A DNA stretch of 62,178 nucleotides, counting the filler, from Kipferlia bialata (taxonomy: Eukaryota), in the NCBI GenBank assembly GCA_003568945.1. It is 4 parts of 4 records of this genome, joined end to end, with 100 filler letters (N's around TTAATTAATTAA, not from the genome) between each part and the next. Parts side by side here need not be neighbours in the genome. Positions count along the whole stretch, not along the records: positions 1 to 16,910 come from BDIP01000563.1; 3 more parts are not named here. One strand, given 5' to 3'. The position numbers and the translations under genes are program-made. Shown here in pieces: positions 1-45,266 of this stretch. The stretch's first letter is position 1. Every line of letters starts with the position of its first letter. The notes under the pieces were generated by a model. That model saw only the letters and a list, made by a program, of their open reading frames with translations, had not been told where the DNA came from and did no database searches.

Positions 1-20
1 TACTATGTAGTAGTATGAAT

Positions 21-1564
21 CAATGCATAAGTACTGGCCAGGGGAGTATGTATTCGTATATGCCACAATGGTGACCCGGAGGGTCACGCTGCACTAGTAT
101 ATATATATACATGGTATGCTATACACATATATACATATGCTGCTATACTTACATACCCTTTGGCTTCCTGGTCTTCCTCTCTGCCCCCCTTGGCTTCCAC
201 TGACACACATATATACACATACACTCTAATTAATAATAGACGTACCCTTTTGCTTCCTGGTCTTCCTCTCTGCATCCCTTGGCTTCCACTGACACATATA
301 TATATGTATATATCCTATATATATATTTATACCTAGAATACTATACATATATGTGTATTCTGTACAAAGACGCACCCTTCTGCTTCCGAGTCTTTCTCTC
401 TGCCTCCCTGGGCTTCCACTGACACAGCATGGTCACAAGGTGCATATGACATACAGAGAGCTGGGGAATAAGGGGGTAGAGAGAGAGAGAGAAGTCAGGT
501 CGGGAAATATCACAGCGTCCATACAGCTGAAGAAAACTAAAATGAAAGAAAGAGGGTATGCATACATCGTACCATAGCCAATAGCACTGCCGGTGTCTCT
601 GGGTGTGTCTGTACATCAGACACTCTGTCATGCACACTGGCCATGTCTAATAGGAGGTCCTCAATGACCTAGGGGATTAGGAATAATAATGAATACATAC
701 AGAGAGAGTATGGATGATATGTACCCATAATGATACATACAATGGTGTATTACTCATGAGCATATCTGACCGAGGTTCTCGAGAGTGTTGAAGATGAAGA
801 GGTAATGAATACATGTCATACCAGAAATATACATAAGATACATAAAGTATACATATAATAATGAGTGTACCTGGCCCAGGTTCTCCAGGGTGTTGAAGAG
901 GTACACATACTTGACGGGCTTCTTCTTATGCAGGCCTGGGGTTACAATTAGTGTATACATACATATTTATAAATACAATATCACTCATATATAGGGTAGG
1001 CTATGAATGTAATTGGGAATATCATGTCTACACTATTACCTTGAGCAGAGAGTGTGTCTCTGTGCATGTCACACATCTCCAGGAGTGCGATACACGCTGT
1101 GACAAAGAGATCCATCTTGTGGGGGGAGGACCTGAGTATGAGTCTCTATATGATTGTAACAAATAGATAGTCTCTATGTCCGTGTAATAAATAGATGATG
1201 AATGCCTTAGAAGGGAGAGAGAGAGATATATGATGTGACAAAGAGGTCCATCTTGTGGGGGGAGGATCTAAGTGTTAGTCTATATGAATATCAATATATT
1301 TATAGGGATACTATAGGTCCTATGTATACCTGACATACATGGGTGATTCTATCTCTGACACACGTAACGTTCACACGTAATACGTACTTATGCAAATGTA
1401 TATTCATAGATATAGAGATAGAGTATTGGCGGGCTAATTAAAATAGTACACATATATACCTGTGGTGTATGGGGAACTCAGTCTCTGACACAAAGTACTC
1501 TGTCTGGCTGTTGTTCTCTAGCTCGGTGCCCAGGCAGGTGTCCATGATGACCTGAAATAAGGGT

Positions 1565-1599
<35 letters not shown>

Positions 1600-4534
1600 A
1601 GCAAGTGTCCATGATGACCTGTGGTTAACGGGTGTAAACATAATCACCTACGCATACAGTATAAATATCAATGTATATATATAGAGAGAGATCAATCAGC
1701 ACCTAACAACTGTCCATAATGACCTATGGAATGTGTGGTACACACAACTTACACAAATACCCATACACATACATATATACCCATACCTCCACGAGTGCCT
1801 CCAGCAGGTGGGTGCCTCTGCCATGTCTGAGGATGGCCTGGGGTGAGATGGATGTAACTATCTATATATGTATATATATATATATATATATATAGACACA
1901 GAGAGAGAGAGAGAGATAGAGAGTACATAGTAACTAGGTGGGTCCCTCTGCCATGTCTGAGGATGGCCTGCGATTAGTTATATATATATAGTTACACACA
2001 TATAGAGGTACGTATATATATATATACTAATGTGCATATGTATGCATCCACGTACCTGCACACATGCCCTAATAGACTCCAGTCCACTGTCACTGCTATC
2101 TCCATCGATGAATGCCAGGAAGGTGTGGATGGTATATATATATATATATATATATATTTATTTATATACTGCACATAGTACCTGCACACATGCTCTTATG
2201 GACTCTAACCCACTATCACTGCTATCTCCATCGATGAATGCCAGGAAGGTGTGGATGGTGGGGGTGCAGATGCGGTGCATGTGGGCCAGGTCCTTGGTAA
2301 GGTACTGATGTCAGTGACTTGTCACAAAGCGTGTTCACACAATCTAATCGTGTAGTATTGTTAGAGTATGGTGCAAATGTGGGCCAGGTCCTTGGTAAGG
2401 TACTGGTGTGAGAGATGACTTGTCACAAATAGTGCAGAAGAAATGTATTAATAATGCGGTGCATGTGGGTTGGGTCCCTGGTAAGGTACTGATGTCAGTC
2501 ACTTGTAGTGACATGTAGTGACAATACATAGTGTATACGTACGAGGATATTGCAATGTATATGGTTAGGTCCCTAGTGAGGTACTAAGGTTAGAACTCGT
2601 GTTGAGACGGTCCAATAGTAGGCCCCTTCCCTGCTGACCTCTGGGTCACAGTGCACCAAGCAGTATAAATACCAATATACAACAGTATATAGCTAGTATA
2701 AGAAAATATATATATATAATATATAATAGTATACCTTAAGTGTACTGGCCCCTTCCCTGCTGACCTCTGGGTCACAGTGCACCAAGAGCGACAGGGTCTG
2801 CTTGATGGCCTCGGGGCAGGTCCTAGAGGGTAAGTATAGGGAAAGTACTGCAATTATCAAGCACTAGATATACATATTTATATGTACTCACTTTGTGACA
2901 TCTCCGTGCACCACCTCCAGGTAGACACAGTCCTCCAGCTGAGACTGCAGGTTCTGGTACAGCTCCTCAGAGGAGGTCGTGACATGGCTTGGGGTTAGAC
3001 TGTTGAGACAGCGATAGTAACACTGGTGAAAGAAGGAAAACTGAGCCAAAGCTACAATTGTGTTTGTACGGAAGTCGTTTGAGACATTGCTTGGTGGTAG
3101 AAGAGAAATTGATACCCTGGTACCTCTCTTCCATTAGGTCTCTGTTCTTGCGCCCTTTCCTCTTGAGTCTGCCAGACCTGGGGGGTAAGATAGCTGCAAA
3201 GAAGAGATATAGAAGAGATATAGAAGAATATTGACTTGTATGTGAAAGGCATCATTATTCTTACTCTCTCATTACAATCATCATATGTTGATGATTACAA
3301 ATTTCTATAAATGCATTTGTACCTAGTTGTCTCCTCCTCCTCCTCGGCCTCCCGCCTCTCTGCCTCAGCAGCCACGAGGGCCCTGGTCTACAAGGGTTAG
3401 TTACAGGATCGAGTACACAATTGAGACAGTAGCAAGTTCTACGCGATGTCATACCTCCACTACAGTCTCGTAGAGGTTATCGAGTACACCCACAGGCACA
3501 GTCAGCAGGAGAGGCAGTTCGTTCAGACCACAGACACGCTTGGAGTTACGGCCTGAACGTAAGCACTATATGACAAATATGTGTATATTTGAGTAAACAC
3601 GAGATGTATAACACATGTATCTGTCTCCTTGGTGGGTCTGGCGACTGACATCTATAAATACTATTCTTATACTTATGATACTACCAATATGTATGTATTA
3701 TATATATACCCTATGTACACACCTGTCTCCCTGGTGCGTCTGGCCACTGTTACATATATATACACAATATATATATATATATACTATACTCTTCAATATA
3801 CACTATCAATACATATATATATATATGTACTATCCATGTACCTGTCTCCCTTGTGCGTCTGGCCACTGGTATCACCTCCTCCTCTCTACCCTCCTTGCCC
3901 CTCTTACTCTTCCTGCCCTTCTTCTTGGGCTGCACGGGCTGAAATGAGTGTGTTGTACATGTACACACACACAATTACAATAATAATTACAAATAGAATA
4001 TGTGTTCAATTACCTGTTGTTGTTCTCTCCTCCAACACATCATACTACATCACTCAAACATGAAAGTATACGTATGCAACCACATACCTCAAACACCCCG
4101 TTCAAGTGCTCCCCGGCCATCAGAGCCGCATTGAGGAGAGACCCAGCCATCTGAGCACACCTAGAGGGTAAGGCATGAGACACACACGCATATATATACA
4201 TAGGTGCACTAGTGTAGCTCTATCCATAGTGTATATGCATTGAGGAGGGACACTGCCACCTGGGCGCTGGGGGTGAGTCATTATATACATATTTACACAT
4301 ATACATGTACGTACTGTTCAGGTGGCAATACCTCTGACACACTGGCCACTAGAATATATATACTAATATACATATTGATATACATATATGTGTATATATG
4401 CATGTATGTATATACACATACGTACTGCTCAGGTGGCAATGCCTCGGAGACACTGGCCAGCAGTACCCTGGCACCCTCGGGATGGATGAGACCGTACTTG
4501 CAGATGGACTAGGAGTGAGAATATATATATAGTA

Positions 4535-4567
<33 letters not shown>

Positions 4568-4775
4568 AGAGAAACACGATGATATCAACTACCCACCTTG
4601 AGCTTATTCACTATAAAAAACTATGGACGAGGACTCAGAATAATCGCACACAATATTGACCACGATATGATAACAACATATAATATATATATAATATATA
4701 CATATAATATGTAGTGCATATCCCCACCTTAACCAGCCTGGACGAGGACTTGAACTTCTTGCAATACTAAACTAT

Positions 4776-4819
<44 letters not shown>

Positions 4820-5602
4820 CTACCATTACTATACTATGATATGTATATCTGTATAGTTCAGGAATGACTCCCACCTTGACCAGCCTGGACGATGACTTGA
4901 ACTTCTTGCCATCCTGGGGTTAGGAATACAGATATACCATATATATATATATATATATATATAACAGTTTCATGATACTGATACTGATACTTGAACTCCT
5001 TGCCATCCTTGGGGGTGAGACACGTAGATATACCATATATATATATATAACATCCTGGGGGTGAGACACGTCAACTGATAGAGACATGTATACACACTTA
5101 CAGCTTCATACGCAATTGACACCACGGGGTGAGGTAGGCAGATGGAATAAGAGGAAGGATTGTATATATATTCAAATGCATGTATGTACCCACCATACAA
5201 ATATTTGACATGTAAACATATGAAAGCCATTGATGAACTGAATCTTCGAAAGTGTGTGTGTTCTAATACTTAAGAAAGACATGAAAAGAAATAGAAATAA
5301 GAATTGTGTATTGAAAATAGAATTAAAACTATTCTTTTACACTTACCGCAGTCTTGTCGTACACCAGTCCCGGTATGAGAAGGGCAACAAGGGCCTTACG
5401 CAGCTCGGAGTTGCGCCTGATACATTAGAGAGAGAGAGAGAGAGAGAGGATGGTTGGCTAAGGGCAACAAGGGCCTTACGCAGCTCGGAGTTGCGCCTGA
5501 CACATCAGAGAGACTGTCTTCATGCCGCTATGCTGACATTGGATATGGTAGGTTCGTAGAACGCTGATCTGTACCTGTTCTCGTACAGACATGCTATATA
5601 CC

Positions 5603-5635
<33 letters not shown>

Positions 5636-8600
5636 CATACTGATCTGTACCTGTTCTCTTACAGACAGCTCAGCAGGTCATTGACAGATAAGAGTCTTTG
5701 AATACTTATGAATAGATAGTATATAGTCATTTATCCTCTCTCTATATATAGAAAGATACAATGACCCACCTGTTCTCGTACAGACAGCTCAGCAGGTCAT
5801 TGACAGAGACCAGCTCACCCAGGGAGTATCCCTAGGGTTAGTGTATGTAAGTGATATATACAACATACACACATAAATGGAATGCATTATACTCTATGAA
5901 AGAGACCAGCTCACCCAGGGAGTAGCCCTATGGTAAGGGATGATATATGATATTCAATACACACTATATACACATATATGGAATGAAATATAGAGACCAG
6001 CTCACCCAGGGAGTAGCACTAGGGTTAGCCAGAGCATAAGATACTATACACATCACAATTTCGGAAGGTACATGAGAAGACACCCACCTTGGAGTATCAT
6101 CATTATATATATGTATATATATGTAGTGTGCATCTATACCTTGGAGTACTCCTCCAGCAGTCTCACATAGGCCATGGAGACCTCGGGAGACCTGTCCCTG
6201 GTATAAGGGAGGTAAGAGAGAGGATAGCAGATTCAACATAGTATTATATAGGCAAATGCAGAGATGCAGAGAGCTGGGTACAATTATACATACCGATCCC
6301 CATCTCACTATACATATATGTGAGAATATCTATACTACGTACTGCAGAGCCGTTGCCATGACCGTGCTCTTGACTGCCATGAGGTGGGTCTTGGTCAGTT
6401 CTCTGGGGATTAGAACCGCTCAGTTAGTATATAGTTACACTTGTAAATAGTCTGTGATGTATATAATGTAGATACCATAGAAAACAACCGGAAGATCATG
6501 CATAAATACACTAACCTACTGAAATAGTTTCCAAGGAGTGTCGTGACGGTATCCAGAGAACAATAGCATACAGCTAGTATACACACAGAAAGAGAGGGCT
6601 ATATATACCTGCTGAGAGGGTTACCAAGGAGTGTTGTGATGGAGTCCAGGGATAATATATACTGTAAGCCATTAGAAATGTACCATAGCAATCCCAACAA
6701 ACGTGTATACACATGCCTATTACCTACTAAGAGGGTTTCCAAGGAGTGTCGTGATGGAGTCCAGGGACAGACGGCGGACAGGGGCAGAGGACCTAGGGTT
6801 GAGACTACTAATGGGTTGAGAGACGGAAACAAGAATTGAAGGAGGGACAAATGAAGTGGGAGACCAACAGAACAATAATGCTGAATATATATATATATAC
6901 GTAGAGAGAGAGAGACAGTACCTGTCAACGGTCAGTGTGGTCACAAGCTGCTTGAGCACCTTCTGCTGGGGGGTCAGATACAAAGGAATACAATCATATG
7001 TACACATACAAAACACTGTACACATATATATGTACATATGTGGGCTGCTTGAGCACCTTCTGCTGGGGGGTCAGACAACAAAGGATACGAAATAGTAAAC
7101 TTATGAGCAAACGGATACCTTCCCATTATCGAGTGAGTCCCAGAACAGGGAGAGATCCCATCCTACACAATCCCACTAACACACACTCACACTAAATAGT
7201 AATACATATATACAACATACCTTCCCGTTGTCGAGAGAGTCCCAGAAGAGGGAGAGAGGCCTCCCGATGCCACCGGCCATGACAGCACGGACCTGGTATT
7301 AGGGGTGTAGAGGGAGAGAGAAAGAAGGTAGAGAGAGAGAGACCACACAATGGGGTATTAGGGGTCCAGGTGAGCCATGAGAACAAGACAGTGTAGTGTA
7401 TAGTCAGGCTATAAAAGTGCATGTACCCGCAAATGATAATAATGTAGCGTATATGTATACCTTGGCTGCGCTGTCCTGCATGAGTGTCAGCACCATGGAT
7501 GTCTGCTTGACAAGGGATACAGGGGTGGGGACTGAGATGAGAGGTACATAGAGAGAGAGAGGGAGGGAGAGAGAGAGAGAGCCATGGATGTCTGCTTGAC
7601 AAGTGAGACAGGGGTGGAGACTGGTGGGAGATATATGCATTATATATCATACATATATACATATACATATTATACCTTCTGCCAGGGGTATGATGGAGTA
7701 ATGGCAAGACACATGGTATATATACATAATTATTAGCCATATACTTTATACTCTATCCTCACCTTCTGCCAGGGGTATGATGGGGTATGCCTAACAACGG
7801 AGTATATCCACTCATACCCTATCAATAAAATAGAACATATACTATATACGCTGCAGTCGTACCTTCTGCCAGGGGTATGATGGGGTATGCCTAACAACGG
7901 AGTATACACTCATATACTATATACATAAGAATATACACTGTGTATGGCGATATATATCACTCGTACCTCTGCCAGGGGTATGATGGGGAATTGCAAGACA
8001 CTTGGTATGTACAAAATAATAAGAAGCCATAAACACTACATCACCCCTACCTTCTGCCAGGGGTATGATGGGGTAGGCCTCGCACAGCAGCATGGCACAC
8101 CTGGGGGTGAGGTATAGACAAACACACACACATATATATATATATATCCTAATACTATGGGGAGAGGGAGAGAGAGATAATGCCTCGCACAGGAGCATGG
8201 CACACCTGGGGTGAGGTATACCAACAGCAGAGTACATATACACACACACATATATATATGTGTGTGTATCCTAATACTATGGAAAGAGGGAGAGAGAGAA
8301 AATGCCTCGCACAGCAGCATGGCACACCTGGGGGTGAGAGAGAGATATATATATATAATGGAGAGAGGAAGAGAGATAAAGAATGTGAGAGAGACCGACA
8401 CTATACATACAAAACTGTACTGTGCCTAGCCCTAATCATTGGATTGACAGCTGCGTGTACCATCAGCAGGGCAGAATCTCTCTCTCTCTCTATATATATA
8501 TACATATGTAAGTATATAGAGACATAAACATACAATATACCTTGCCCTAATCATTGGATTAACGGCCGTGTGTGCCATCAGCAGGGCAGTCTCTCTCTCT

Positions 8601-8787
8601 CTTAATATATACATATATATAACATTCATTATAATATACCTAGCTCTAATCATTGGATTAACAGCTGTGTGTGCCATCAGCAGGGCAGGCCCATAGAACA
8701 GGATGTTGTGGAACTGGTTCGAGATCTGGGGTCAGAGTAAATGTGTTATTATATATATATATATAATATGTATATACTATACACAGA

Positions 8788-8826
<39 letters not shown>

Positions 8827-9415
8827 ACCATAGAACAGGATGTTGTGGAACTGGCTGGAAATTTGAGGTCAGTATATTTGCCCCCATGGTATATGTGTAT
8901 ATATCACAGTTGCTTTGACAAAAGATGCATGTGCACATTCTACTAACTCACCAAAGATCCTGTCCTTGACTTGCCAGCCTCTGTCCTGACCCTCTCCCCG
9001 TGGATGAGTCTCTCTCACCCTCTCTCTCTCTATATATATATAATATATACATATATATAAGTACTCTCATATACTCACCAATGACCCAGTTCTTGACTTC
9101 CCGGCCTCTGTCCTCACTCTCTCCCCGTGGATCAGTCTCTTCAATAGGTCGGCACTTCTGACACAGACCTTGGCACTACCGCTAGAGTCAGAGATTATGT
9201 GCATACACAAATATATATATATATATATATGGATAAGTCTCTTGAGCAGATCGGCACTCCTCACACACACCTTGGCACTGCCACTGGGGGGTTAGGGTGT
9301 CTATATATAGATACTATCTATATATATGTATTATATATATATATATATAGAGAGAGAGAGATAATATAGCACTCCTCACACACCTTGGCACTACCACTGG
9401 GGTAAGAGGTTATGT

Positions 9416-9449
<34 letters not shown>

Positions 9450-10923
9450 GGATGAGTCTCTTGAGGAGGTCGGTACTCTTCAGACACACCTTGGCACTGG
9501 GGTTAGAGTATATAAATATAAATATAATAATATATTAATAATTATTACTATATATTATTTCGACATATTATATTATGTTATATTACTACATTGACCAGCG
9601 CATAGAGGGCCAGGTATGTGCATAGTGTTAGACAAGAATATGTATGGTGTCAGGCTTTACATAGTGTATGCACTATACACTCACCGTAGCACTGACTGCA
9701 GCAGAGTGACTGTCAACTCCTTGGCAGCAGCCTGGGTCTCCTCCTAGGGGTCAGATGGGTGTATGTAGAATATGTAAAAATAGTTGATGTATACAGTGAA
9801 TATAGGTATATATACATTGTCTCAGTATATACCTGCGACAGTGCGTGGTTTGTGCTCAGACTGAGGACATGCTTCAGGGCAGGGATGATGGCCTGGATGT
9901 GAGGTAAGAGTAGCTTCGTCAAGTACAGAGACACACAATATCATTACATCTGTGTATATATGCTGAGGACATGCTTCAGGGCAGGGACAATGGCCTGACG
10001 TAAGGAGAGAGTATACAGATGAGATATATAGATGATAGTCATATACATATATGTGATGCTGAGGACATGCTTCAGGGCTGGGACGATGGCCTGGGGTGAG
10101 GGTACTGCATATACAATAAGAATATTCAATATATACACAAACTATATACAGACACTACATGCTTCAGGGCCAATGGCCTAGGTTGAGGGTAAGCGTATAT
10201 ACTATAATGCATGGTGACCCGTCAATCCTCATACTTGTACAGAATGGACATACAAATCTTACCCCAATGCTAGTCTTGTTGACATTTGCCACACCAGGGC
10301 CCTCTCTCTCTTCTTCTTTTCTCTCTCTCCCTACGTGTATAGATACACCATATACACCACACTTACCCCAATGCTAGTCTTGTTGACATCTGGTGACACC
10401 AGGGCCATCCTCATGTCAACGCCAACAGAGCCTGATGTAAACAGTAATATAGATAAATATTGTGCATATATATATACTGGTAATGTATTATGCTATGTAC
10501 AGGGCCATTCGCATCTCAACGCCAACAGAGCCTGGAGCAAACATACACTATACACAAGAATTAGGAGCATATACAAATGAATACAAACCACAAGAGAGAT
10601 TGTATAGAAGAGCCATCCTCATATCAACCCTGACAGAGCTTGATGTCAATAGTATATGTACTACAATAAGTAGGAGAATATGTACCATGTAGCTCGAACA
10701 CCAGCTGTGTCCCCTTCATTTCATTTACATTAATATCATTAATATATATATCAAGAGTAAACAATATGTATAGAATTACTATATTTACTATAGAGAGTCT
10801 ACCTGGCATCATGAACAGTTCATACACCAGCTGCGTCCCCTGCTTGGTCCTGGTGACATCGGGTCTGATCAGGGTGTAGAAGCCAAAGACGGTCTTGGAT
10901 CTTTCCCTAGAGAGAGTTCTGAT
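21..10923 (-). CDS. NCAPG2: Condensin II complex subunit G2 (CAP-G2/NCAPG2)-like HEAT-repeat protein; multi-exon, 5' end missing (before or in the gap at 11351), terminal exon uncertain
   Basis: Manually spliced GT-AG exons give ...ILFYGPALLMAHTAVNPMIRARCAMLLCEAYPIIPLAE...LTLMQDSAAKVRAVMAGGIGRPLSLFWDSLDNGKQKVLKQLVTTLTVDRSSAPVRRLSLDSITTLLGNPLSR...DRSPEVSMAYVRLLEEYSK. This is collinear with the recalled CAP-G2 core (LYxPILWRxLxxxNxxVRxNAxxLFxEAFP...LLxDxxPxVR...WE...LAxDxSSxxVR...LDN.LSH...HDxSEKVRVAF). Matched from memory, not by search. Confidence 0.7.
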
Positions 10924-11828
10924 CTAGGGTAAGAGAGAGAGAGAAAGAGAGAGAGAGTCTGATGAGGGTGTAGAAGCCAAAGGCAGTCTTGAACCTCTCA
11001 CGAGAGAGGGTTCTAATCTAGGGTAAGAGAGAGAGAGGCAGAGAGAGAGAGAGAGAGAGGTGATAAAGACGACGTCAGATGACTGACGTGACAGGAACCA
11101 TATATAGTATATACATAATGTTCATAACAGTGGAAGGAGAGGGCTGAATGGGAGAGGGGGAGAGAGAGAGGGGGGAAGGAGAGGGAGGGGAAGAAGCCCA
11201 ATACAAGATGGGGATGAGAGAGTTGAAAAGGTGAGAGAATAGGGAGAGAGAGAGAGACAAAGACATCTACAGAGAGAAGACACAACATGATGTCGTGAGG
11301 AGGAGAACGGGGGGGGGGGGGGGGGACTATCGACTATTTTACATGAGTCCNNNNNNNNNNNNNNNNNNNNNNNNNNNNNNNNNNNNNNNNNNNNNNNNNN
11401 NNNNNNNNNNNNNNNNNNNNNNNNNNNNNNNNNNNNNNNNNNNNNNNNNNNNNNNNNNNNNNNNNNNNNNNNNNNNNNNNNNNNNNNNNNNNNNNNNNNN
11501 NNNNNNNNNNNNNNNNNNNNNNNNNNNNNNNNNNNNNNNNNNNNNNNNNNNNNNNNNNNNNNNNNNNNNNNNNNNNNNNNNNNNNNNNNNNNNNNNNNNN
11601 NNNNNNNNNNNNNNNNNNNNNNNNNNNNNNNNNNNNNNNNNNNNNNNNNNNNNNNNNNNNNNNNNNNNNNNNNNNNNNNNNNNNNNNNNNNNNNNNNNNN
11701 NNNNNNNNNNNNNNNNNNNNNNNNNNNNNNNNNNNNNNNTTTTTCCCCCCCCTTTTTTCCCCCCCCCCCCCCCCCCCCCCCCCTTCCTCCACTCTGGTAA
11801 CTCTCCTCTACCCTTCCCTACCCCTCAG

Positions 11829-13202
11829 ACCGTCCCCGTCCCCATAGGCGATGGGCCTGAGGACCCCATGGGCCACATCACAACGGACGAGAGAGGCATC
11901 CCCGTCGGAGGGTCCACCTCTTACAGGGCACTCGACGGGTCGATATTTACACATGGTACGTGACGCATATACTGACACCACCTAGAGTATCACTATTCCT
12001 TTGCACTCTATCTTCCTTTTCTCCCCCTTCTGACCCCAGACCTAGCCACCTCCCGGGAGGCCATGGATCTTGACTACTTTGTAGATCTCATGGGGTTCTT
12101 TGTACACGCAGAGGAGTTTGCGGGGTATTGCAGGTAATTATGTCGCTTACCTCTCTACCCCCATCTATCCCTCTGCCTCACCCTAGGGATCAGCTGTGCT
12201 CTGGATCTGGGGGTCTCAAGGCAGTCAGGGCCAGGTGCTATGATGACAGGGTCCACCGCAAGTACTGGTACGTACAGTGCATACTACCAGTACCTAGTGT
12301 CTACATATCCCCCAACCTCTATACATATCTTTACCTATATACACCCCACCCCAGGTACCATGCGGATGCCTTTGCCGAGGAGGTCCAGAAGGTATGGGAC
12401 CGGGTGGTATCTGAGTTTGACCCCTCCAAGGAGGAGCCGATCAAGACAAAGCTGAGAAAGAGGGTGCTTGTCCTATTGGAGAGGCACACCAAGTGGATGC
12501 GGCAGCTGGATCAGTACATCACAGGGTGGGTACAGAGTTTCACAAAGTCTCTCTGTCTCTATATACTAGGATTGTAACGACCCCTCACCCCCCAGGTCCC
12601 ATGAGATGCGCATCTGTCAGAAGGAATGCATGGATCTGTCCGAGGTCTGCTCTCTACTGTCCGGGGTATGCTGCTAGTGTCACTATTTAGACCTCTTCTT
12701 CCTATCATCACAGACACAGAGCATTCTGTGTTTCGGTGGGATGTCTACAGCGGTGTTTGGTTGCAATCGTAATATGTATGCTTCTACCATCTCTCCATTC
12801 ACTCCAGCGACTGGTAGAGATGAACAGTGATATGGAACCGGCCGTGCTGGCCCGTCTCAACGTAAGTGGACAGTGTTCACTGACTCATACACATTGATAT
12901 GTGTATGCGTATATGTGTCGTGAGTGTCTGACCCCCTAGGCCATGCTGCCCCAGTATGACCAGTATATGGTGATACTCATGGGGGAGGTGGATACCCTGC
13001 TCTCAAAGCAGCAGAGGGCCAAGAACAGACGCACCGGCAAGGACGTCAAGGTGAGAGATGGTTATATTGAGGAGAGTCCACCTATAGTCATGCGCAATTA
13101 CACTAGAGAGCCATTCTATCGCCGATTCGTGGTGAGGTTGTTGTGTACAATGTTGATATGTATCTCTGGTACTCCGTATAACCCCAGGTATCCAAGCTGT
13201 GA
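11829..13202 (+). CDS. Hypothetical protein, 5'-partial, about 8 short exons
   Basis: Exons starting at about 11829, 12040, 12187, 12355, 12596, 12808, 12940 and 13188, with cTnACcccAG-type acceptors and GT donors, splice in frame (TVPVPIGDGPEDP...HRKYWYHADAFAEEVQKVWDRVV...GKDVKVSKL*). No family recognised. Confidence 0.7.
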
Positions 13203-13573
13203 CCAGGATATATCCTTGAAGAATCGCAATCGAGTGCAACAGCCTCACATACCACGGATGAATACGTTGGGGCAGGACCTCCTCTTCTGTGTGTGACACA
13301 GACACTCAGTATAGAAGTGGAAGAGGATCCATAAGAAGTACTAGACCTAGTAAAAGGGATTCAGAATCCATTATATTCCTGGATTACCGGCCCCCATGCA
13401 AAATTGGACTCCATATTTACTTCACACCCAGTGTCACACTGACAGTGTGGACCACACTGAGGACTGTCCTGCATCCCTTGTCCAAAAACCTACGGTCATG
13501 AAACGCAAGTGTGTTGCAGACTTTGTGATGTGTGGAAATGATACAAGTGTGACACTGTTCTGTGTCTCTCTCG

Positions 13574-13962
13574 ATGTCAATTCGCCGCTACCAGCCTGGC
13601 GACGAGGAGGACTGTCTCTCTGTGTGGGAAAACTCTACGCGTCTCGCACATGGAGCCTTCTTCTCCGAAGAGTTCATAGCGAAGGAGCGAATCAACCATG
13701 CGACGTTCTACCTCCCCAAACTTGACACCTGGGTCTATGTCGACGACGGACACGCTGTGGGGTTTATGGTGCTGATAGGGAACGAGGTGGGGGGCCTCTT
13801 TGTACACGGGAGCCATCACGGTAAGGGGTATGGGAGAGCCCTTGTCGATAAGGCCAGAGACATGCACGGCAATCTAGAGGTCGAAGTGTTTGAAAACAAC
13901 CCAATTGGCAGGCGGTTCTACGATCGGTACGCCGCTTCCTCCCTTATATATATATATATCTG

Positions 13963-13996
<34 letters not shown>

Positions 13997-14273
13997 ATGA
14001 TTCATACTTTGAATATTCATAGACATAATATTGACTCTTAGATATATCTCCACTGTGTTATGGACCCTCCAGGTATGGCTATCTAGTGCATAGTATGTAC
14101 ACCTGCCGATTCATTTCTCTGCATTTGGCCTGCTCTGACCTGTATTGACCTGTATTGACCTGTGTTGACCCTCCAGGTATGGCTTCGTCTCCCGGGATGG
14201 GCCGGGTAATGTGCACAGGCACGAGGAGACGCGGGAGAATCTGCTCAGGCTCTATTACACGGCCCCCAAGTGA
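13574..14273 (+). CDS. GNAT-family N-acetyltransferase of bacterial YjaB/YiaC type; two exons (13574-13926, 14177-14273)
   Basis: MSIRRYQPGDEEDCLSVWENSTRLAHGAFF...AVGFMVLIGNEVGGLFVHGSHHGKGYGRALV...LEVEVFENNPIGRRFYDR|YGF. Contains the acetyl-CoA binding motif (xxGxGxG) and the N..A/G..FY...GF motif, with the intron splitting FYDR/YGF. Confidence 0.9.
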
Positions 14274-14820
14274 AGGTGGAGTGAATCATGATGTTGCCAA
14301 TGGGACCTAGAATCTAACCAATAGACATGCAGAGCGTCTCTTTTGCAATGCAGCCTACATATAGGATTATTGTAAGATGCAATGAATGATTCATTATGGA
14401 TCTCTCAGAAAGGTATGTATATCATTGATATACATACCTCTCTAGTTGATATTATCAATAGCGAGAGAGAAAGGTCACCTTAATGAGTGTGTTTGGTAGG
14501 TCCTCGCCTCTATCAACCGATACGGTATCGGTTACCGATACCGCACCTCAAGGAGGAGAGAGAGAGCGAGTTATACACTTTCATCACGTTGTTATAAACG
14601 TTAGTGTGTAATATATCAGTGGTCACAGGGCATGTGGACTCTACAGTGTAGTCTACACTGTAGACTCTACGGTGTAGAGTGCGGGGAACTCCTCAAGAGA
14701 AGCCATCCCCAAACACCTACTGTTGACCCAAAGCTCACTCACTGTATACCCAGCTACTTCAACCTGCATTGACTGTCTCTCTTTTCGCACTATCTAGTGT
14801 CGAGATACAGACTAGTGGGA

Positions 14821-15749
14821 ATGTCCTCACCCAAGCAGCCCCTCTCTCCCACTGAGTGTGACTCGTCAGAGGACTCACATGCCGAGGACTACCTCAGTGC
14901 AGTGAGTAGCGGTATCTCTACAGTTGAGGAGTACTTCCAAGGCATTGAGGACCTGGCTGTTACCTTATCTGGCCTGGTTACTCCAACCAAGCTTGACCCT
15001 ACCGCCCTCAGCCAGATAGAGGGTGTGCTCACTGCCCTGACGGAGATGAGGGCCGGTGGCAAGGAGACAGTCCGCACAGTGGAGCAGTATATTACAGTGT
15101 CCAGTAGAGGTACAATGGACTCCAACAGGAGACAGAGGCTCGATTACCTGGTGCAGAGACTCAGAGCCGTCAGCCGCAAGTTCTCCTCGAGCATTGACAA
15201 TGCGGAGAGGGTGGCCAGGGGGTTGGTGCCCAGGATCCAGGCTGTACACAACATACTCCTCATCCCCACCCTTCTGTTAGAGGCCCTAGTCTCTAGGCCC
15301 CAGAGACTGTGTCACTGGGTGTGACCCCAGCCGACAAGGACACCCTCACAAGGTATCACTTTGCATATTTAATGGTCGTGTGTTTCGTTAACTCTTATTC
15401 TATACTTCTCATTCCGTCTTCTCCCAGGTGTGCACGGGCCCTTTCCTCTGAGGGGGAGGTCCCCCAGGCAGACCTGATAGCCATGGCCAAGGCGGGTAAA
15501 GTGTATGGATGGGTAACCTCTGCCAACATGAAGGTGATTGGACCAATCATTGGTGCCTATCTGGGCAAGAAGGAGACCTACCAAGTGCACAGGGTTCCCC
15601 TGAGTGAGTATACCCTTGAGCAGGTGGGTAAGGTGGCTGCCACGCTCAAGGATGAATACCTTGGCTCAGTGGTGATGAGTGTGGCAGGGGACATGGACAC
15701 CCAGTGGCACAGACTGTGCCCCCCAGACAGTGACAAGGAAGACCTATAG
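14821..15749 (+). CDS. Hypothetical protein, probably 3 exons
   Basis: Long GC-rich ORF from ATG 14821, a frame change consistent with a short intron ending near 15295 (ctctag|gcc), a second intron 15353-15427, and a stop at 15747-15749. First donor position uncertain. Confidence 0.6.
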
Positions 15750-16860
15750 GCGGGAAAGCCTTTGGAGACCACTTGGAACGAGCTAAGAGAGAACGGTTTG
15801 GAGGGTGTCAATCTCTCCTATTCCCTTTCACTCCTCAGTAACTTACTGAGTCGTTAAGCCAAGTTGTAGTGTTAGTGCAAGGTTGTCTGATTTTACAACT
15901 TTCAAATCCCTCAGACACTAGAGACTCATCGAGTAGACATCTATTCTGTAGCTCTTGCAAAGGGGTCATCGTTGTTGTGTCACTGATCTATGACCTATGT
16001 AATAATACTTACTCTCCCTCATCCTAATATGGTGTGGTTGCTATCTCGCCACAATGGGTAGTCCCTTTGACCCCCGGTTCTCTCTCTGGGGAAGGGAAGG
16101 GTATGGTGGTGAACCAGGACTTCTCTGTCTCTTAGACATCATATACTGTGATGCCCGCATTTCTACCAGGCATACGTGAGATCAGGTAAAACACTTGACA
16201 CAGCGGGGTACCAAGTTGGTACTACCACAGTACCTAGTGTTATTCTCTATGATAAACGTATATTCTGTCTCTCCGGAGCTCATCTCATAGCCATTTCCCC
16301 GTGAGAGTGAGAGATACAGAGGGGAGAGACTGAGACAGGAGGCAGAGGCCAAGAAGGCAGAGGCTGCGCACTCAACAGGCAGAGGATGCTGGAGAATGGG
16401 GAAGCAAAACAAGAGAAAGGCAAATACGACAAGGAAGGCAGGGGGGACAAGAAGTGAGGGAATCTAAATGCGGTCTGTCATGCGTCTTACTAGTAATGTA
16501 GTGAATCTCCGTAGGATACCACTTCTATGAACACATACATTGTCAACGCGGTCTCTTGTGTTAAACTTCCAAACAAAAACACACAAGGGTTTAGGAGCAC
16601 CTAGCACTGCATATCTGTATCTCTTTAGTCCCAGTGTTAGGGTGGGATTGAACATGAAGGGAGCCAAGAGGAGAGATATCAAGGCGCAGGCTGGTAAGAA
16701 GTCCAACAAGGGAGCCGCAAAGTGAGTGAGTTTGTATTGACTTGTATATAGTCAATCCCAGTATGATGTATCATCTGTGTGTACATGTTGAAGCGCATGG
16801 CTGTATCAGCATGTCTACACTCGCATGAGACTCTGTATGAAAGCATTTTACCCTGTTATC

Positions 16861-16910
<50 letters not shown>

Positions 16911-16954
16911 NNNNNNNNNNNNNNNNNNNNNNNNNNNNNNNNNNNNNNNNNNNN

Positions 16955-16966
16955 TTAATTAATTAA
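16955..16966. other. Artificial contig linker (TTAATTAATTAA within N runs)
   Basis: Identical 12-mer with stops in all six frames, embedded in Ns and repeated at 33937 and 45267. Confidence 0.95.
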
Positions 16967-17010
16967 NNNNNNNNNNNNNNNNNNNNNNNNNNNNNNNNNN
17001 NNNNNNNNNN

Positions 17011-17065
<55 letters not shown>

Positions 17066-17335
17066 AGATGGGGCGCCAACATACAACATACACGGACACC
17101 TAATTCGGGAAAAGGCAGCCAATTGACCAGATGAAGGAGATACTATGTGGGAACAAGAGATTGGCATTAACATGATACCAAACACACACCGACACGAGAG
17201 AGAGAGAGAGTGGGGGATACTCATGTATGATACCTCAGCACTCCTGTAGAAGAGAGAGAGAGAGAGATATCCCAAGAGAATGAGAGAGTAGCAGTATACT
17301 CTAAGAGAGAGAGGGTATATACACATACTGGTTAC

Positions 17336-17377
17336 CTCAGGCTCCGGCACTCCACCCCTCTCACCATCCTTCTCCAT
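17336..17377 (-). CDS. Possible first exon of a gene divergent from DNAAF3 (runs off the contig end)
   Basis: ATG...MEKDGERGGVPEPE followed by a gtaacc donor, with a possible 10-nt micro-exon (cag|gagtgctgag|gtatca) near 17236-17246. Confidence 0.3.
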
Positions 17378-17680
17378 GACTCTACCCTTCACTGTCTCTC
17401 ACTCAGTGTGACTTGATGGTATTGACACTCAGGAGAGTCGGTGAATGGCACAGAGTCACTGTGTAAGAGACAGTCACTGACTTGGACTACTCAGCATTGG
17501 TGTTTTTGTCTAATCAGAGAAGAAGGGTGCAGGGTGTCAGACTCATGCTGTTATGCCGCACTCTCTTCTACACCATACACACTGCGTGTATCTGCATACA
17601 ACTGCACATATCTGCACTATATAGGTAGATAGGGACCCTTTATACCGCTAAGCCGGAGAGAGAGAGAGAGAGAGAGAGAG

Positions 17681-18120
17681 ATGCAGGGACAGTCCCAGGC
17701 GCAGTCCTATGGGAACAAGCAGTACTGGGGGCTGGGGTCTCCCATTGAGCTGAGGGAGAAGGCAACGTCAGTCGGGGCTGGAGACAAGGTACGTGTGAAG
17801 TATAGGACGCACTCAAATGTTTCATACATATATACATGCATACATGTTACTGAATAGTGTCTTGATTGATTGGCGAGCATATATGTATATACATATGCTC
17901 GGGGGCAGGGGGTAAGGTACTCTTGTGACTCGTGTGTGCATTTACATACATGTGTGTGTGTGTGGAGTGATACCACATATGACTCCACGTGAGTCCGTCC
18001 CTCTGTGCTCTCTCTCTCTCTCTCTCTTTCTCTCTCCATGGGTCATTATGTCTCTGTTTCCTTGTGTGGTACCTCGTAAGAATAGCAGTCGCCAGGGGCA
18101 GACTGATGCCACGTGGTGGA

Positions 18121-18159
<39 letters not shown>

Positions 18160-18404
18160 TCTACACTCACTATTAGGCTGACCGTGATTATTCTGATATG
18201 TATATGATACTGATACTGACCTCATTCTCTCTCTCTCTCTATGTGTGTGTCAATCTCCTCACTATAGGCTGACCGTGATGTCCTGATGTGTGAGACCAGT
18301 GACTTGAGGCACCTCCTTGGGAACCTATCTCTGTTCAGGTACTCTCTCTCTCTCCCCTAACCCTCTTATGTCAGAAATGTGTTGGACTGTGGCAGTGGTG
18401 TCAG

Positions 18405-18441
<37 letters not shown>

Positions 18442-21068
18442 GTACACCCTTATGTCAGGAGTACCTTGGACTGTGGCAGTGGGGTCAGCCTGACATTCCT
18501 GGAGCAGAAGCCAGGTATCATATCATATGCATTTATATATGTGTTAGTATATATATATATATGTGTGTATACATACATATATATATATATATATGTGTGT
18601 GTGTGTATAGATAATCCTGGAGCAAGCCAGGTGCATTATCGTAATAATCATGGGACCGGATCATATACTGCTGTTTGCGCTCACTGTCAGACACCCTTGA
18701 GAGTGATCATTGACACTCTGTATTGAATGCATTCTGTTACATCTAGTATTATAGTATATGTACTGTTTGGGTTAAAGTATATGTACTCACTGCCAGACAC
18801 CCTTGTGAGAGTGGCCATTGATACTCTACATATCTAGTACTCAAGTTCCTTAAAAATTGTATGAGTATAGTATCCTCTATATATACCAGTTGGATATGTT
18901 CTATCTAACTCCCAGACACCCTTGTGAGAGTGGCCATTGAGCTTGCATTCCTCATGGACATTGCCAGGTACTATATATGTATATATATATACATATATGT
19001 GTACAGTGTATTAATATAGATATATACATTGAGCTGGCATTCCTCATGGACATAGCAAGGTATAGTAAGAGTATATTTATGTATATGCACTGTATCATAT
19101 CATATCATAGCATATTGGTCCAATGGGAAGGGTCCCTCTTCGCTCTTGAGTAACTTCCCTCTACCCTAATTGACACATATCCTACATCCTTACTTCTCTC
19201 CTTCTACACCCTAGGGTGAAGGTCATATATCCTACACCCAAACCTCTCCCTCTTCATTCACTTCACCCTTAATGTCAGGGAGGAGAACACCCGTGCCAAG
19301 CTGTCCCTCTGTGAGTCACTGCTGGAGGTATATACTCTCTCTCTCTCTCTCTCTCTCAACCTAATTGCACTCCAAGTACAGCCCTCTCTCTCCCTCTCTA
19401 TCTCTCCCTCTAGCCCCTAATTCTCAGGTCCACTCCAACATCCGTCTGACACACACTGCACTGGGGGACCTAGCAAGGGTCTGCAAGGTATTCATACACT
19501 TACATATATATATGTGTATATGCATGTGATACAGAGAAGGTATCATTATTAGTATTAGTGTATTGTTCACTGCACTGGGGGACCTGGCAAGGGTGTGCAA
19601 GGTACATAGTAGAGTATTTGTATTATAGTGTACTATATATACTATGTATTCAATTTTGAGTGTACATGGTGGTATATACACTGGCCAGGGTGTGCAAGGT
19701 ATGCACTATATACCATATGAATAGTGTAAATATATCGCACATCATTTCTATCTATATTCTCCCCCAGGGCCTTGCCGACTTCTGTGGGGATGGGGGTTAC
19801 TAGAAGAAGCATATATATATATATACATATACACATATATATAATTATGTATGTGTGTTTCAATATGATACTCATCTTCAGGGCCTTGCCGACTACTTCT
19901 GTGGGGGTGGGGATATATCACCCATATATAGATATATATATAGAGATATATAGAGATATATATAGATATAGTGTCAATGTACTCATCCTCAGGGCTGATA
20001 ACAGTTGTATTCTTGTTTATATATATACCGATATTTATCGATATCCTTACCCCCAGGGCCTTGCTGACTACTTCTGTGGCGATAGGGATATATCAGCCAT
20101 ATATGTATATATATATGCATGTGTTAATTGTATATGGATATCTTTATATATAGCTCTCTCTAACTGCTAGGGCCTTGCCGACTACTTCTGTGGCGATGGT
20201 GGTTATTAGAAGAAGCAAATATTGATTGTTATATATGTACATTGTTGATATATATATTATCAATACCAGTGTACTCACCCAGGGCCTTGCCGACTACTTC
20301 TGTGGCGATGGTGGTGAGCAGTATGCATTCCTCGGACTCAAGAGGTATGTGTGTGTTCAATGACAGTATCAGTATCAGTTCTTCTGTATATGTTGAATAT
20401 CCAAACATTTGTATATGCTGTACTATGTACAAAATATATTGTATAGTGCAGTGTCCAGTATGCATCTCCTCGGACTCAAGAGGTGCGGATAGATTGTAAT
20501 GACATATATACACAAGGACTATTGTATTATGTAGATGGGTGAGCAGTATACATTCCTCGGACTCAATAGGTATATATGTACAATGGCGTAATCTACATTT
20601 GTTCATATATGTGAGTAATCTGGGACCGTCCCTATGCCCGTCAGTTCTTTCTCTACTCTCTCTCTCTCTCTCTCTCTGTCTCCCATTCTTTCTTTCTCTC
20701 TATGTGTATACATACATTGTTTCTCATACCAGACTCAAGATGCTTGACAAGGCAGACAGCCTCCATGCCCTATTATACTCTCTCTCTCTCTCTCTGTATA
20801 CATATATGGATATATGAATATACATATCTTACACTAGACTCAAGATGCGTGACAAGGACAGCCTCCACGCCCTGTGCTCCATGTACAGACAGGCCATCAG
20901 TGGCACAGAGACTGCATGGTGTGTGTTTACATAATACTCAGGCAGAGACGGCGTGGTGTGTGAACGTATACATATATACATATATACTATACTATATTTA
21001 TACACGTAATATGAGTAGTTTATGTATATATACATGCCCTGTGCTCCATGAACAGACATATACTCCAT

Positions 21069-21109
<41 letters not shown>

Positions 21110-21906
21110 CCCTAGGGATGAGAGGCAGCGTGCACAGATGGAGGAGAGATACGACGCAAGGTACAATGAGTAATTAATATGTACAATAATAGTATTGACA
21201 ATGATAATAATCATTGTTGTGTATGTATTTATATCTACATGCTCACTGGTAGAGGGAATGTCTACTCCTAGGACTACCACATGAGACATATTCACAAGTA
21301 TCTACGCTTCTTTCACATATTTGATTTGTGTTAAAATCATGAATGATATTTAGTACTCACAACCAGGGAGAACGTCTACTCCTGGGACTACCACATGAGG
21401 CTCCTCCCTCTCCTGCCCCATGTGCCAGACCTGTTCTACGTGTCATTCAGGTATAGAGAGAGAGAGAGAGAGTAATGCTATTAGTATTGAATATGATATA
21501 TGTGACACACTACGTGTCATTCAGGTATGAGGGACTATATGTGTTACGTATTGATTAGTATACTATTCGGATATTCATTGGTATGTATTGTAGTACAGTG
21601 ACTGTATTACTAATGGAGGGCATTGATTTGTCTATAGAATGTGTTAATGATACGGTATGTCACATGTTTGTTAATTATCTAACCCCTCAGGAGCTCTGGC
21701 CTTGCCTTCCTGGGTGACTACACTCAGCCACCAGCAGCATTCCTACAGGGTACGACATATGTATATAGAAGAGTACATACATATATATATGTATACATGT
21801 CCTTCTATTTATATATGATGACTACACTCAGCCATATGCTACTATATATACATGTCACTATGTATCCATCAACGCCCCTGAGGAGTGGAGGACCCTGGAT
21901 GAGGAG

Positions 21907-34213: not shown

Positions 34214-45092
<10,879 letters not shown>

Positions 45093-45266
45093 CTGGGGGT
45101 AAGAGAGTGTATGTACATATATAGTAGTGAGGGAGAGATATACATATACAGTGAAAAGGTATGAGGGGGGGGGGGGGGCAAGGAATATCAAAGGGCATAA
45201 TATGGCCCCAAATACTAAGTGANNNNNNNNNNNNNNNNNNNNNNNNNNNNNNNNNNNNNNNNNNNN

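What the first reader, a model, noticed from the sequence alone, without database searches (positions are those of the whole stretch)
148..11020. Polarised echo architecture around nearly every exon of the NCAPG2-like gene
Upstream echoes keep branch point, AG and exon start but no donor (e.g. 9993 and 10091 before 9893; 10959-11017 before 10923; 8207 and 8328 before 8100). Downstream echoes keep exon end and GT but no acceptor (7675, 7762, 7862, 7966 after 8050; 8427 and 8540 after 8640; 6609 after 6725; about 158 and 246 after 376). Only one copy has both sites. The synonymous bias recurs: 8540 vs 8640 has 4 silent and 0 replacement changes, 6609 vs 6725 has 4 and 0, and 10959-11017 vs the exon has about 7 and 2. 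Because each intron carries several decoy donors and acceptors, splicing probably needs strict exon definition (inference).
Basis: partly seen in the sequence, partly recalled or inferred. Interest (0 to 1): 0.8.

Follow-up and report, generated by a model that had tools for sequence, protein, structure and literature searches.

The report
Exon-edge echoes fill Kipferlia introns
In this free-living protist (Kipferlia bialata) the long introns are built from same-strand partial copies of the neighbouring exon edge, each with a spare splice site as strong as the real one, and the nearest copies differ from the real exon almost only by silent codon changes, which likely means they were copied from a second, diverged working copy of the gene.

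Summary
The gene lies on the minus strand: 31 exons reproduce a Kipferlia bialata protein exactly, and a spliced contig confirms the exons in 1-4360. I found 44 echoes in the flanking introns, against 0 in each of three controls. All 22 upstream echoes start at the exon start. 21 of 22 downstream echoes reach the exon end. 36 of 44 keep AG or GT. 22 of 31 exons have an echo, not "nearly every" one.

Echoes account for intron length: 0 of 10 introns under 150 nt carry one, 17 of 17 of 250 nt or more do. Decoy sites score like real sites. A second gene in the window (CHD-like, 56 exons) repeats the pattern.

The synonymous bias holds and is stronger than reported. For echoes nearest the exon, pN/pS is 0.06. 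Third-position changes avoid amino-acid replacements, so the filter follows the genetic code. Outer echoes decay neutrally.

Best reading: local duplications of about 100 nt across exon-intron junctions, tolerated because the site pair closest across the exon is spliced (inferred). The nearest echoes likely derive from a diverged functional homologous copy (inferred, untested). I found no description of this in print.

The parts
376..10923 (-). Condensin-II G2-like gene (KIPB_003079, partial), 31 exons. Exon coordinates: 10803-10923, 10367-10431, 9833-9892, 9685-9743, 9079-9181, 8640-8725, 8051-8100, 7461-7531, 7221-7292, 6922-6965, 6724-6792, 6343-6402, 6140-6197, 5770-5831, 5347-5416, 4875-4913, 4426-4508, 4088-4160, 3842-3938, 3455-3552, 3323-3387, 3124-3177, 2892-2987, 2735-2822, 2182-2304, 1787-1837, 1460-1551, 1040-1131, 871-935, 573-668, 376-460.
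   Evidence: Exact translation to P0001. Exon 1 extended by open frame and acceptor. Spliced X2 contig in 1-4360. Family: PDB 9f5w_G condensin-2 G2 at E=1.3e-5; atlas clusters with PF12422 at 0.97; no Pfam hit.
10957..11037 (-). Acceptor-side echo of exon 1: branch point, AG and the first 61 nt of the exon
   Evidence: 7 silent and 3 replacement differences
10500..10654 (-). Two acceptor-side echoes of exon 2 (10500-10534, 10612-10654)
9963..10301 (-). Intron 2: donor-side echo of exon 2 (10258-10301), then acceptor-side echoes of exon 3 (10059-10094, 9963-9997)
9230..9498 (-). Three acceptor-side echoes of exon 5 (9449-9498, 9377-9415, 9230-9279)
8824..9013 (-). Intron 5: donor-side echo of exon 5 (8946-9013; 9 differences, all silent), then acceptor-side echo of exon 6 (8824-8872)
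8182..8589 (-). Intron 6: donor-side echoes of exon 6 (8534-8589, 8425-8474), then acceptor-side echoes of exon 7 (8304-8338, 8182-8220)
7582..7988 (-). Intron 7: four donor-side echoes of exon 7 (7956-7988, 7860-7892, 7761-7792, 7673-7700), then acceptor-side echo of exon 8 (7582-7623)
7044..7155 (-). Intron 9: donor-side echo of exon 9 (7115-7155) and acceptor-side echo of exon 10 (7044-7075). Together they enclose an intron-sized 56-nt inner segment.
6514..6652 (-). Two donor-side echoes of exon 11 (6606-6652 with 4 silent/0 replacement; 6514-6556 with 2/5)
5897..6028 (-). Two acceptor-side echoes of exon 14 (5992-6028, 5897-5934)
5460..5688 (-). Intron 14: donor-side echoes of exon 14 (5649-5688, 5573-5591), then acceptor-side echo of exon 15 (5460-5513)
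4723..5013 (-). Acceptor-side echo of exon 16 (4989-5013) and donor-side echo of exon 16 (4723-4762)
4299..4348 (-). Donor-side echo of exon 17
   Evidence: The X2 contig passes from 4160 to the real exon (its loose letters match the window from 4426 on), not to this echo.
3614..3749 (-). Two donor-side echoes of exon 19 (3721-3749, 3614-3647)
   Evidence: The X2 joint 3551->3841 skips both.
2377..2660 (-). Intron 24: internal-block echo of exon 24 (2621-2660, 40/40 identical, no donor aligned), then acceptor-side echoes of exon 25 (2454-2506, 2377-2425)
   Evidence: The X2 contig is continuous from 2304 to 2735.
1936..2133 (-). Intron 25: donor-side echo of exon 25 (2052-2133, 7 silent/0 replacement), then acceptor-side echo of exon 26 (1936-1970)
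1601..1621 (-). Acceptor-side echo of exon 27
1234..1285 (-). Acceptor-side echo of exon 28
   Evidence: The X2 joint 1129->1458 skips it.
756..794 (-). Donor-side echo of exon 29 (GT lost)
   Evidence: The X2 joint 666->869 skips it.
155..296 (-). Two donor-side echoes of exon 31 (238-296, 155-207)
34217..45198 (-). Second gene used as a replicate, outside the finding: CHD-like (KIPB_003633/005426), 56 exons, 15 echoes of the same kind

Best explanation
The long introns of this Kipferlia bialata gene hold same-strand partial copies of the adjoining exon edge with its splice site. These copies likely arose by local duplications of about 100 nt across single exon-intron junctions. They would be tolerated because the spliceosome is predicted to use the acceptor-donor pair that lies closest across the exon.

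Shown:
- the echoes, their polarity and their order in each intron (donor decoys first, acceptor decoys last);
- that they account for intron length;
- that the decoys score like real sites;
- that the assembled transcript uses the outermost sites.

Also shown: echoes nearest the exon differ from it as two working coding copies would. Their changes are silent, follow the genetic code, and show no drift towards A+T. Outer echoes carry replacement changes at the neutral share.

Inferred:
1. A duplication that takes in one junction leaves the reading frame intact. One that takes in a whole exon or a whole intron makes a false exon and is lost. Only polar echoes therefore survive.
2. The nearest echoes were likely copied from, or left behind by, a diverged functional homologous copy (another allele or genome copy). 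This would happen when a break was repaired by copying past the exon border and the ends were then joined without annealing. The lineage is reported to lack classical end joining.
3. Older echoes are pushed outward and decay.
For: - Architecture: 44 echoes against 0/0/0 in controls. Polarity is 43 of 44 in gene 1 and 15 of 15 in gene 2. Donor decoys come before acceptor decoys in 31 of 31 echo-bearing introns, including 8 of 8 that hold both kinds. Spacers are 43-112 nt.
- Near repeat pairs in the whole window: 116 direct against 3 inverted, median spacing 118 nt. 78 of 96 ungapped pairs share a splice-like site.
- Intron length: gene 1 has echoes in 0 of 10 introns under 150 nt and 17 of 17 of 250 nt or more, rho 0.89. 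Gene 2 has 0 of 31 under 100 nt and 10 of 11 of 150-250 nt, rho 0.71.
- Decoy strength. The transcript contig uses real sites across at least 6 echo-bearing introns.
- Coding-type divergence: unique differences are 83 silent/35 replacement in gene 1 against 24% expected (P=6e-26), and 13/1 in gene 2.
- By rank: 41 nearest echoes give 84/16, pN/pS 0.06. 18 outer echoes give 29/22, pN/pS 0.24. Fisher P=6e-4.
- Third-position changes in nearest echoes are 79 silent/5 replacement, against 33% expected replacement (P=2.6e-9).
- Three-branch counts: exon branch 17/2, near-echo branch 14/2, far-echo branch 7/23 (pairs in arrays of three or more overlap).
- Silent changes run G/C to A/T 32 times and the reverse 30 times, although introns are 39% G+C and third positions 72%.
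- Decoy acceptors keep a YTNAY..AG motif although their sequence differs from the real one.
- Spacers are barely more alike than unrelated ones: 0.65 against 0.57.
- Metamonads lack Ku70/Ku80 and DNA-PKcs (PMC8516963, passages).
Against: - No diverged second copy was found. P0001's cluster has one member. The four CHD-like records are about 100% identical. The metagenome scan found no relative.
- DNA contigs showed one variant letter in 4360 nt at 95% likeness. A copy under 95% alike would not have been laid.
- About 18% third-position divergence is very high for alleles of one species.
- Model-free codon periodicity is clear only in gene 1. Contig B gives P=0.18; contigs D+E give P=0.019.
- Exon definition is unusual for a genome of short introns and is not tested here.
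- The evidence rests on two genes, one draft assembly and contig-level RNA only.
Confidence: 0.55

Rival explanations
1. Plain tandem duplication from the same chromosome or sister chromatid, followed by neutral decay. The silent-change bias would come from a side effect, such as selection against echo variants that can be copied into the exon by conversion or unequal exchange.
For: The geometry alone gives the polarity. Several echoes are 100% identical to the exon. Outer echoes do decay neutrally: the far branch shows 7 silent/23 replacement.
Against: - Neutral echoes predict about 39% silent differences and pN/pS of about 0.5. Nearest echoes show 84% silent and pN/pS 0.06.
- The near-echo branch itself is 14 silent/2 replacement.
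- By my own estimate (inference, no call), transfer frequent enough to be selected would also erase the 18% silent divergence, unless Ne x mutation rate exceeds about 0.15.
Confidence: 0.15
2. The echoes are selected RNA elements. They would be decoy half-exons that recruit splicing factors, or that allow stepwise (nested) removal of long introns.
For: Decoy sites stay as strong as real ones, and nearest decoys are stronger than outer ones. Branch-point motifs are kept despite sequence change. Innermost decoy pairs enclose intron-sized segments of 55-172 nt in 8 introns. Echo introns are somewhat more structured than shuffles (median z -0.67 vs +0.07, P=0.002).
Against: - An RNA-level role does not explain a filter that follows the genetic code.
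- 23 of 31 echo-bearing introns hold only one kind of decoy, so nested splicing cannot work there.
- Predicted folds do not bring the real sites closer than in shuffles (P=0.18).
- Short introns without echoes are the majority, so no minimum intron length is needed.
Confidence: 0.12
3. The echoes are translated, as alternative exon ends or in-frame insertions, and are therefore kept by selection on the protein.
For: The divergence is of coding type. A few units are in frame and free of stops, such as the 99-nt unit after exon 6.
Against: Use of a decoy would be in frame in 17 of 44 cases, and both in frame and stop-free in only 5 of 44. Only one copy per exon has both sites. The X2 contigs cover no echo-only bin in 1-4360, although contigs drop rare forms.
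Confidence: 0.04
4. Assembly artefact: pieces of a second haplotype were wrongly strung in tandem.
For: It would explain allele-like silent differences. The assembly is fragmented and redundant, with the same CHD-like protein on several contigs.
Against: - Separately built contigs of run X1 bridge echoes and real exons without a difference: 176-1556, 2230-2650 and 2757-3749. The run may be the assembly's own sample.
- The echoes sit next to spacer sequence, not next to the exon body.
- There are up to four copies per array.
- The order of decoys is not what two bubble arms placed in series would give.
Confidence: 0.03
5. Traces of intron birth: either tandem duplication of an AGGT-containing exon segment, or introner or transposon insertion.
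For: Tandem duplication is a known route to new introns (PMC3265369, PMC4974935; listing and start of abstract).
Against: - That route puts a copy of the downstream exon start at the intron's 5' end, and a copy of the upstream exon end at its 3' end. The order here is the reverse, and the echoes carry intron signals.
- Echoes match only the adjacent exon: 0 hits in non-adjacent introns, and a few short matches between contigs.
- No terminal repeats were seen.
Confidence: 0.03

Closest known systems
Human F7 intron 7 minisatellite (37-bp VNTR whose first unit spans the exon 7 donor; PMC1557585, abstract read)
   Same: Tandem units that start in the exon end. The authentic donor is followed by functional but silent pseudo-donors of the same sequence. 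The most upstream site is chosen.
   Different: F7 is one locus with 37-bp units on the donor side only. Here two thirds of the exons of one gene, and several other genes, carry units of about 75-130 nt on both the donor and the acceptor side. On the acceptor side the LAST site must be chosen, which 5'-to-3' scanning does not explain. The nearest units also show coding-type divergence.
Intron gain by tandem duplication of an exon segment (PMC3265369, PMC4974935, PMC2891723; listing and start of abstracts)
   Same: A local tandem duplication yields duplicated splice signals, and the mRNA is restored by splicing.
   Different: Those events create an intron from exon sequence. Here existing introns are lengthened, the echoes carry branch point/AG or GT plus intron bases, and the order of the copies is the opposite.
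Introns of diplomonads and parabasalids with a branch point fused to the 3' splice site and pairing inside long introns (PMC6679479, passages)
   Same: The acceptor consensus here also has a branch-like YTNAY a few bases before CCCCAG. K. bialata has a reduced spliceosome, with 87 of 174 proteins found.
   Different: No exon-edge repeats are described there. The predicted folds here do not shorten the donor-acceptor path.
Polar, inter-allelic unit transfer at human minisatellites (recalled from the literature of the 1990s, from no call)
   Same: New units copied from the other allele enter at one end of an array. This would give echoes their allele-like silent differences.
   Different: Not tested here. 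No second allele is in hand.

Membership tests
Junction-spanning minisatellite (F7 IVS7 type) | Head-to-tail same-strand units, with the first unit overlapping the exon edge | tested here: met
   same-strand arrays of 1-4 echoes beside the real edge, spacing about 75-130 nt, 116 direct against 3 inverted near pairs.
Junction-spanning minisatellite (F7 IVS7 type) | Pseudo-sites of full strength that stay silent | tested here: inconclusive
   Strength is met. The assembled X2 contig uses the real sites at all 8 listed joints. Contigs cannot show rare use.
Junction-spanning minisatellite (F7 IVS7 type) | Units nearly identical over their whole length; unit number varies between individuals | tested here: not met
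   Whole-unit identity is not met: spacer identity is 0.65 against 0.57 for unrelated spacers. Variation between individuals is not testable with one genome.
Intron gain by tandem duplication of an AGGT segment | The intron's 5' part copies the downstream exon start and its 3' part copies the upstream exon end | tested here: not met
   the order is the reverse in 31 of 31 introns. The echoes include intron signals.
Introner / transposon-derived introns | Near-identical copies spread over many unrelated introns | tested here: not met
   0 hits of exon-edge blocks in non-adjacent introns. Only a few short matches between the window's contigs.
Recursive splice sites | Juxtaposed AG|GT, so that a 5' site is rebuilt after the first step | tested here: not met
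   8 of 30 real exon starts begin with GT (my count from the printed list). The echoes copy these starts.
Tandemly duplicated alternative (mutually exclusive) exons | Each copy has both an acceptor and a donor | tested here: not met
   echoes keep one site only. The inner ends carry no regular splice signal.
Condensin-II subunit G2 (identity of the gene) | Match to PF12422 or to a solved G2 subunit | tested here: inconclusive
   No Pfam family at E<=0.01. PDB 9f5w_G 'Condensin-2 complex subunit G2' at E=1.3e-5 over 157 residues. Atlas clusters with PF12422 at 0.97.

The most novel reading that the evidence does not exclude
The echoes nearest each exon are fresh captures from a deeply diverged second working genome copy (hybrid or hyperdiverse ancestry). 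On this reading, Kipferlia's long introns are a scar record of homolog-templated break repair in a lineage without classical end joining. Its reduced spliceosome must then pick sites by pairing across the exon, although its basic introns are only 50-100 nt long.
Probability: 0.3. Interest if true: 0.85.

Novelty: new variant of a known kind. Interest (0 to 1): 0.75.

Why it matters
Single loci with a repeat that spans a splice junction are known. A genome in which this is the usual way introns grow is not, to my searches.

If the pattern holds genome-wide, it gives three things:
- A natural experiment on splice-site choice. There would be hundreds or thousands of full-strength decoy donors and acceptors in fixed order, in an organism with about half the usual spliceosomal proteins.
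- A concrete mutational route for intron lengthening.
- An unexpected record of a second coding lineage, or of protein-level selection, inside introns. This bears on ploidy, sex or hybrid ancestry in a poorly known protist group.

Tried and rejected
- RNA evidence. The look-up of sequencing runs listed no holder on record as RNA. X2 is 'RNA?' by the tool's guess.
- Laying reads. Contigs could then be laid only on 1-4360, so decoy use and the upper two thirds of the gene remain untested by RNA.
- Other sources. No whole genome is held. Earlier-findings look-ups were empty. The metagenome scan found no relative. Rfam gave 0 matches.
- Diverged copy inside the window. P0004 does not map to 17011-33892. 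P0002, P0003 and P0004 are about 100% identical. The only paralogous pair, the kinase-like genes on contigs D and E, matches at 81-89% in 3 exon pieces, none of them at an echo array.
- Bridging of the real sites by RNA structure: not supported.
- Echoes of one exon meeting at its midpoint: suggested by gene 1, not repeated in gene 2. It follows from echo length and exon length.
- Translation of echoes: rejected on frame and stop counts.
- Mini-exon reading: the inner ends carry no regular AG or GT.
- Gene conversion, unequal exchange and a codon-usage shift as causes of the silent bias: rejected. The grounds are the three-branch counts, the lack of direction in the changes, and a rough population-genetic estimate of my own.
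- Third replicate. P0005 covers only 6 exons at 22967-26570. It was not analysed further.
Full report
**What is there.** The stretch is part of a minus-strand, intron-rich gene of the free-living metamonad Kipferlia bialata.
- The exon at 2182-2304 is 100% identical to P0001, 'KIPB_003079, partial'. A 31-exon model with GT..AG introns translates to P0001 letter for letter.
- I extended exon 1 to 10803-10923 by its open frame and acceptor.
- A 3700-letter contig of run X2 joins the exons of 1-4360 at CT..AC borders. X2 is RNA by the tool's guess and comes from the same sample as the DNA run. Eight joints are listed. The contig's loose letters after 4160 match the window from 4426 on, which is the real exon 17 and not the echo at 4299-4348.
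- DNA contigs of run X1 bridge echoes and real exons without a difference (176-1556, 2230-2650, 2757-3749). That run may be the assembly's own sample.
- The protein is condensin-II G2-like by a PDB match (E=1.3e-5) and by language-model neighbours. It has no Pfam hit.

**The echoes.** Each exon +-20 nt was aligned to its two flanking introns.
- This gave 44 echoes, 22 on each side. Reversed queries gave 0, reverse-complement queries gave 0, and non-adjacent introns gave 0.
- All 22 upstream echoes start at the exon start, usually with the branch point and AG. 21 of 22 downstream echoes end at the exon end, usually with GT.
- 36 of 44 keep the dinucleotide.
- 22 of 31 exons and 19 of 30 introns are affected.
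- Every intron with echoes reads, in gene direction: real donor, spacer, [exon end + GT] repeated, an inner segment, [AG + exon start] repeated, spacer, real acceptor. Spacers are 43-112 nt. The order holds in 31 of 31 introns of two genes.
- Echoes account for intron length.

**Generality.**
- In the whole window, near repeat pairs are 116 direct against 3 inverted, with median spacing 118 nt.
- 78 of 96 ungapped pairs share a splice-like site on the strand of the local gene.
- A second gene was mapped exactly: CHD-like, 56 exons, 34217-45198. It has 15 echoes against 0 in the control, with polarity 15 of 15.

**Splice-site choice.**
- Position-weight scores built from 86 real sites put decoy donors level with real ones (8.6 vs 8.4 bits, P=0.94). 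Decoy acceptors are a little lower (8.5 vs 10.7, P=0.03).
- 21 of 27 decoy donors and 25 of 32 decoy acceptors exceed the real sites' 10th percentile.
- Decoy acceptors lie upstream of the real acceptor and decoy donors lie downstream of the real donor. The real pair is therefore the closest pair across the exon, while decoy pairs are closer across the intron.
- Pairing across the exon is thus the simplest rule that yields the observed mRNA. This is inference. Only contig-level RNA on 1-4360 was available.
- Predicted RNA folds do not bring the real sites together.

**The silent-change bias.**
- Differences between echo and exon are 83 silent/35 replacement (unique sites) in gene 1, against 24% silent expected (P=6e-26). 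In gene 2 they are 13/1.
- A neutral echo beside a constrained exon predicts about 39% silent. That figure is my own estimate.
- The bias depends on rank. The 41 nearest echoes give 84/16 (pS 0.254, pN 0.015, ratio 0.06). The 18 outer echoes give 29/22 (ratio 0.24). Fisher P=6e-4.
- In arrays with two or more echoes, the unrooted branches carry 17/2 (exon), 14/2 (near echo) and 7/23 (far echo) (some sites are counted in more than one pair).
- Of the third-position changes in nearest echoes, 79 are silent and 5 are not, against 33% expected replacement (P=2.6e-9). The filter therefore follows the genetic code.
- The changes have no direction: 32 G/C to A/T against 30 the other way, although introns are 39% G+C.
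- Spacers of the same units are barely more alike than unrelated ones (0.65 vs 0.57). Decoy acceptors keep the motif but not the sequence.
- Third-position divergence of nearest echoes is 0.183, with only mild over-dispersion (X2 53.2 on 40 df, P=0.10).
- The nearest echo thus looks like a piece of a second working copy of the gene. The outer echoes look like dead copies.

**Explanation.**
- The architecture follows from local duplications that take in one junction. Duplications holding a whole exon, or a whole intron with both exon edges, would make a false exon and be removed. This is inference.
- The coding-type divergence cannot come from neutral decay. My estimate also excludes conversion or unequal exchange, unless diversity is near saturation. 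Translation of echoes is excluded as well: a decoy would be in frame and stop-free in only 5 of 44 cases.
- I therefore favour capture from a diverged functional homologous copy during break repair that copies past the exon border and is closed by end joining.
- This fits the reported lack of Ku and DNA-PKcs in metamonads (PMC8516963, passages).
- It also fits a mirror-image junction mark. (TC)n follows the inner end of 14 of 32 upstream echoes, where (GA)n is never seen. (GA)n precedes the inner end of 7 of 27 downstream echoes, where (TC)n is never seen. (GA)n is almost absent from echo-free introns.
- No such second copy was found, so this step is open.

**Known or new.**
- The genome paper reports 124,912 GU-AG introns. 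In the passages that match 'intron', 'repeat', 'tandem' or 'splice' it says nothing about exon-edge repeats, and 'tandem' occurs 0 times.
- Full-text searches found no description.
- The closest case is the human F7 intron 7 minisatellite (abstract).

Noticed in passing
window 16911-17010, 33893-33992, 45223-45322, 57814-57881: The window is several assembly contigs set end to end, separated by N runs, mostly in pairs. Pieces 1-16910 and 33993-45222 have exactly the contig lengths on record for P0001 (16910) and P0003 (11230). Neighbourhood across these gaps therefore means nothing.
   Followed up: partly
window 34217-45198 (-): The same CHD-like protein is on record under four K. bialata locus tags, on contigs of 19956, 11230 and 16879 nt. 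The sequences are about 100% identical (1 difference in 1573 residues between two of them). This points to assembly redundancy or very recent duplicates.
   Followed up: partly
all real acceptors of both genes, e.g. window 8101-8112, 6966-6977: The acceptor consensus is ..YTNAY..CCCCAG|G, with the branch-like motif only a few bases before AG. This resembles the fused branch point/3' site of diplomonads and parabasalids.
   Followed up: partly
inner ends of echoes, e.g. window 8790-8823, 8590-8600, 5425-5447: There is a mirror-image microsatellite mark. In gene direction, (TC)n then (TA)n follow upstream echoes, and (TA)n then (GA)n precede downstream echoes. (GA)n on the coding strand occurs once in 54 echo-free introns and 12 times in 31 echo-bearing introns.
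   Followed up: partly
window 47688-47820 (+) and 59212-59344 (-): Two paralogous kinase-like genes lie on different contigs. Their exon pieces are 81-89% identical, and both have echo arrays of their own.
   Followed up: no
window 10150-10190 and 4236-4270: Weaker, partly deleted further echoes fell below my score threshold: a third upstream echo of exon 3, and a possible upstream echo of exon 18. The count of 44 is therefore a lower bound.
   Followed up: no
window 11291-11340, gap 11351-11739: A G run lies at the contig edge before an N gap. The annotated protein is partial, and the 5' exons of the gene may lie beyond the gap. The 3' exons lie beyond the window's left edge: the X2 contig has about 1000 more letters there.
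   Followed up: no
window 24043-26570 (+): The G+C-rich stretch (about 60%) is the long last exon region of another partial gene (P0005, KIPB_005610). It has exons of 309 and 1899 nt, unlike the short exons elsewhere in the window.
   Followed up: no
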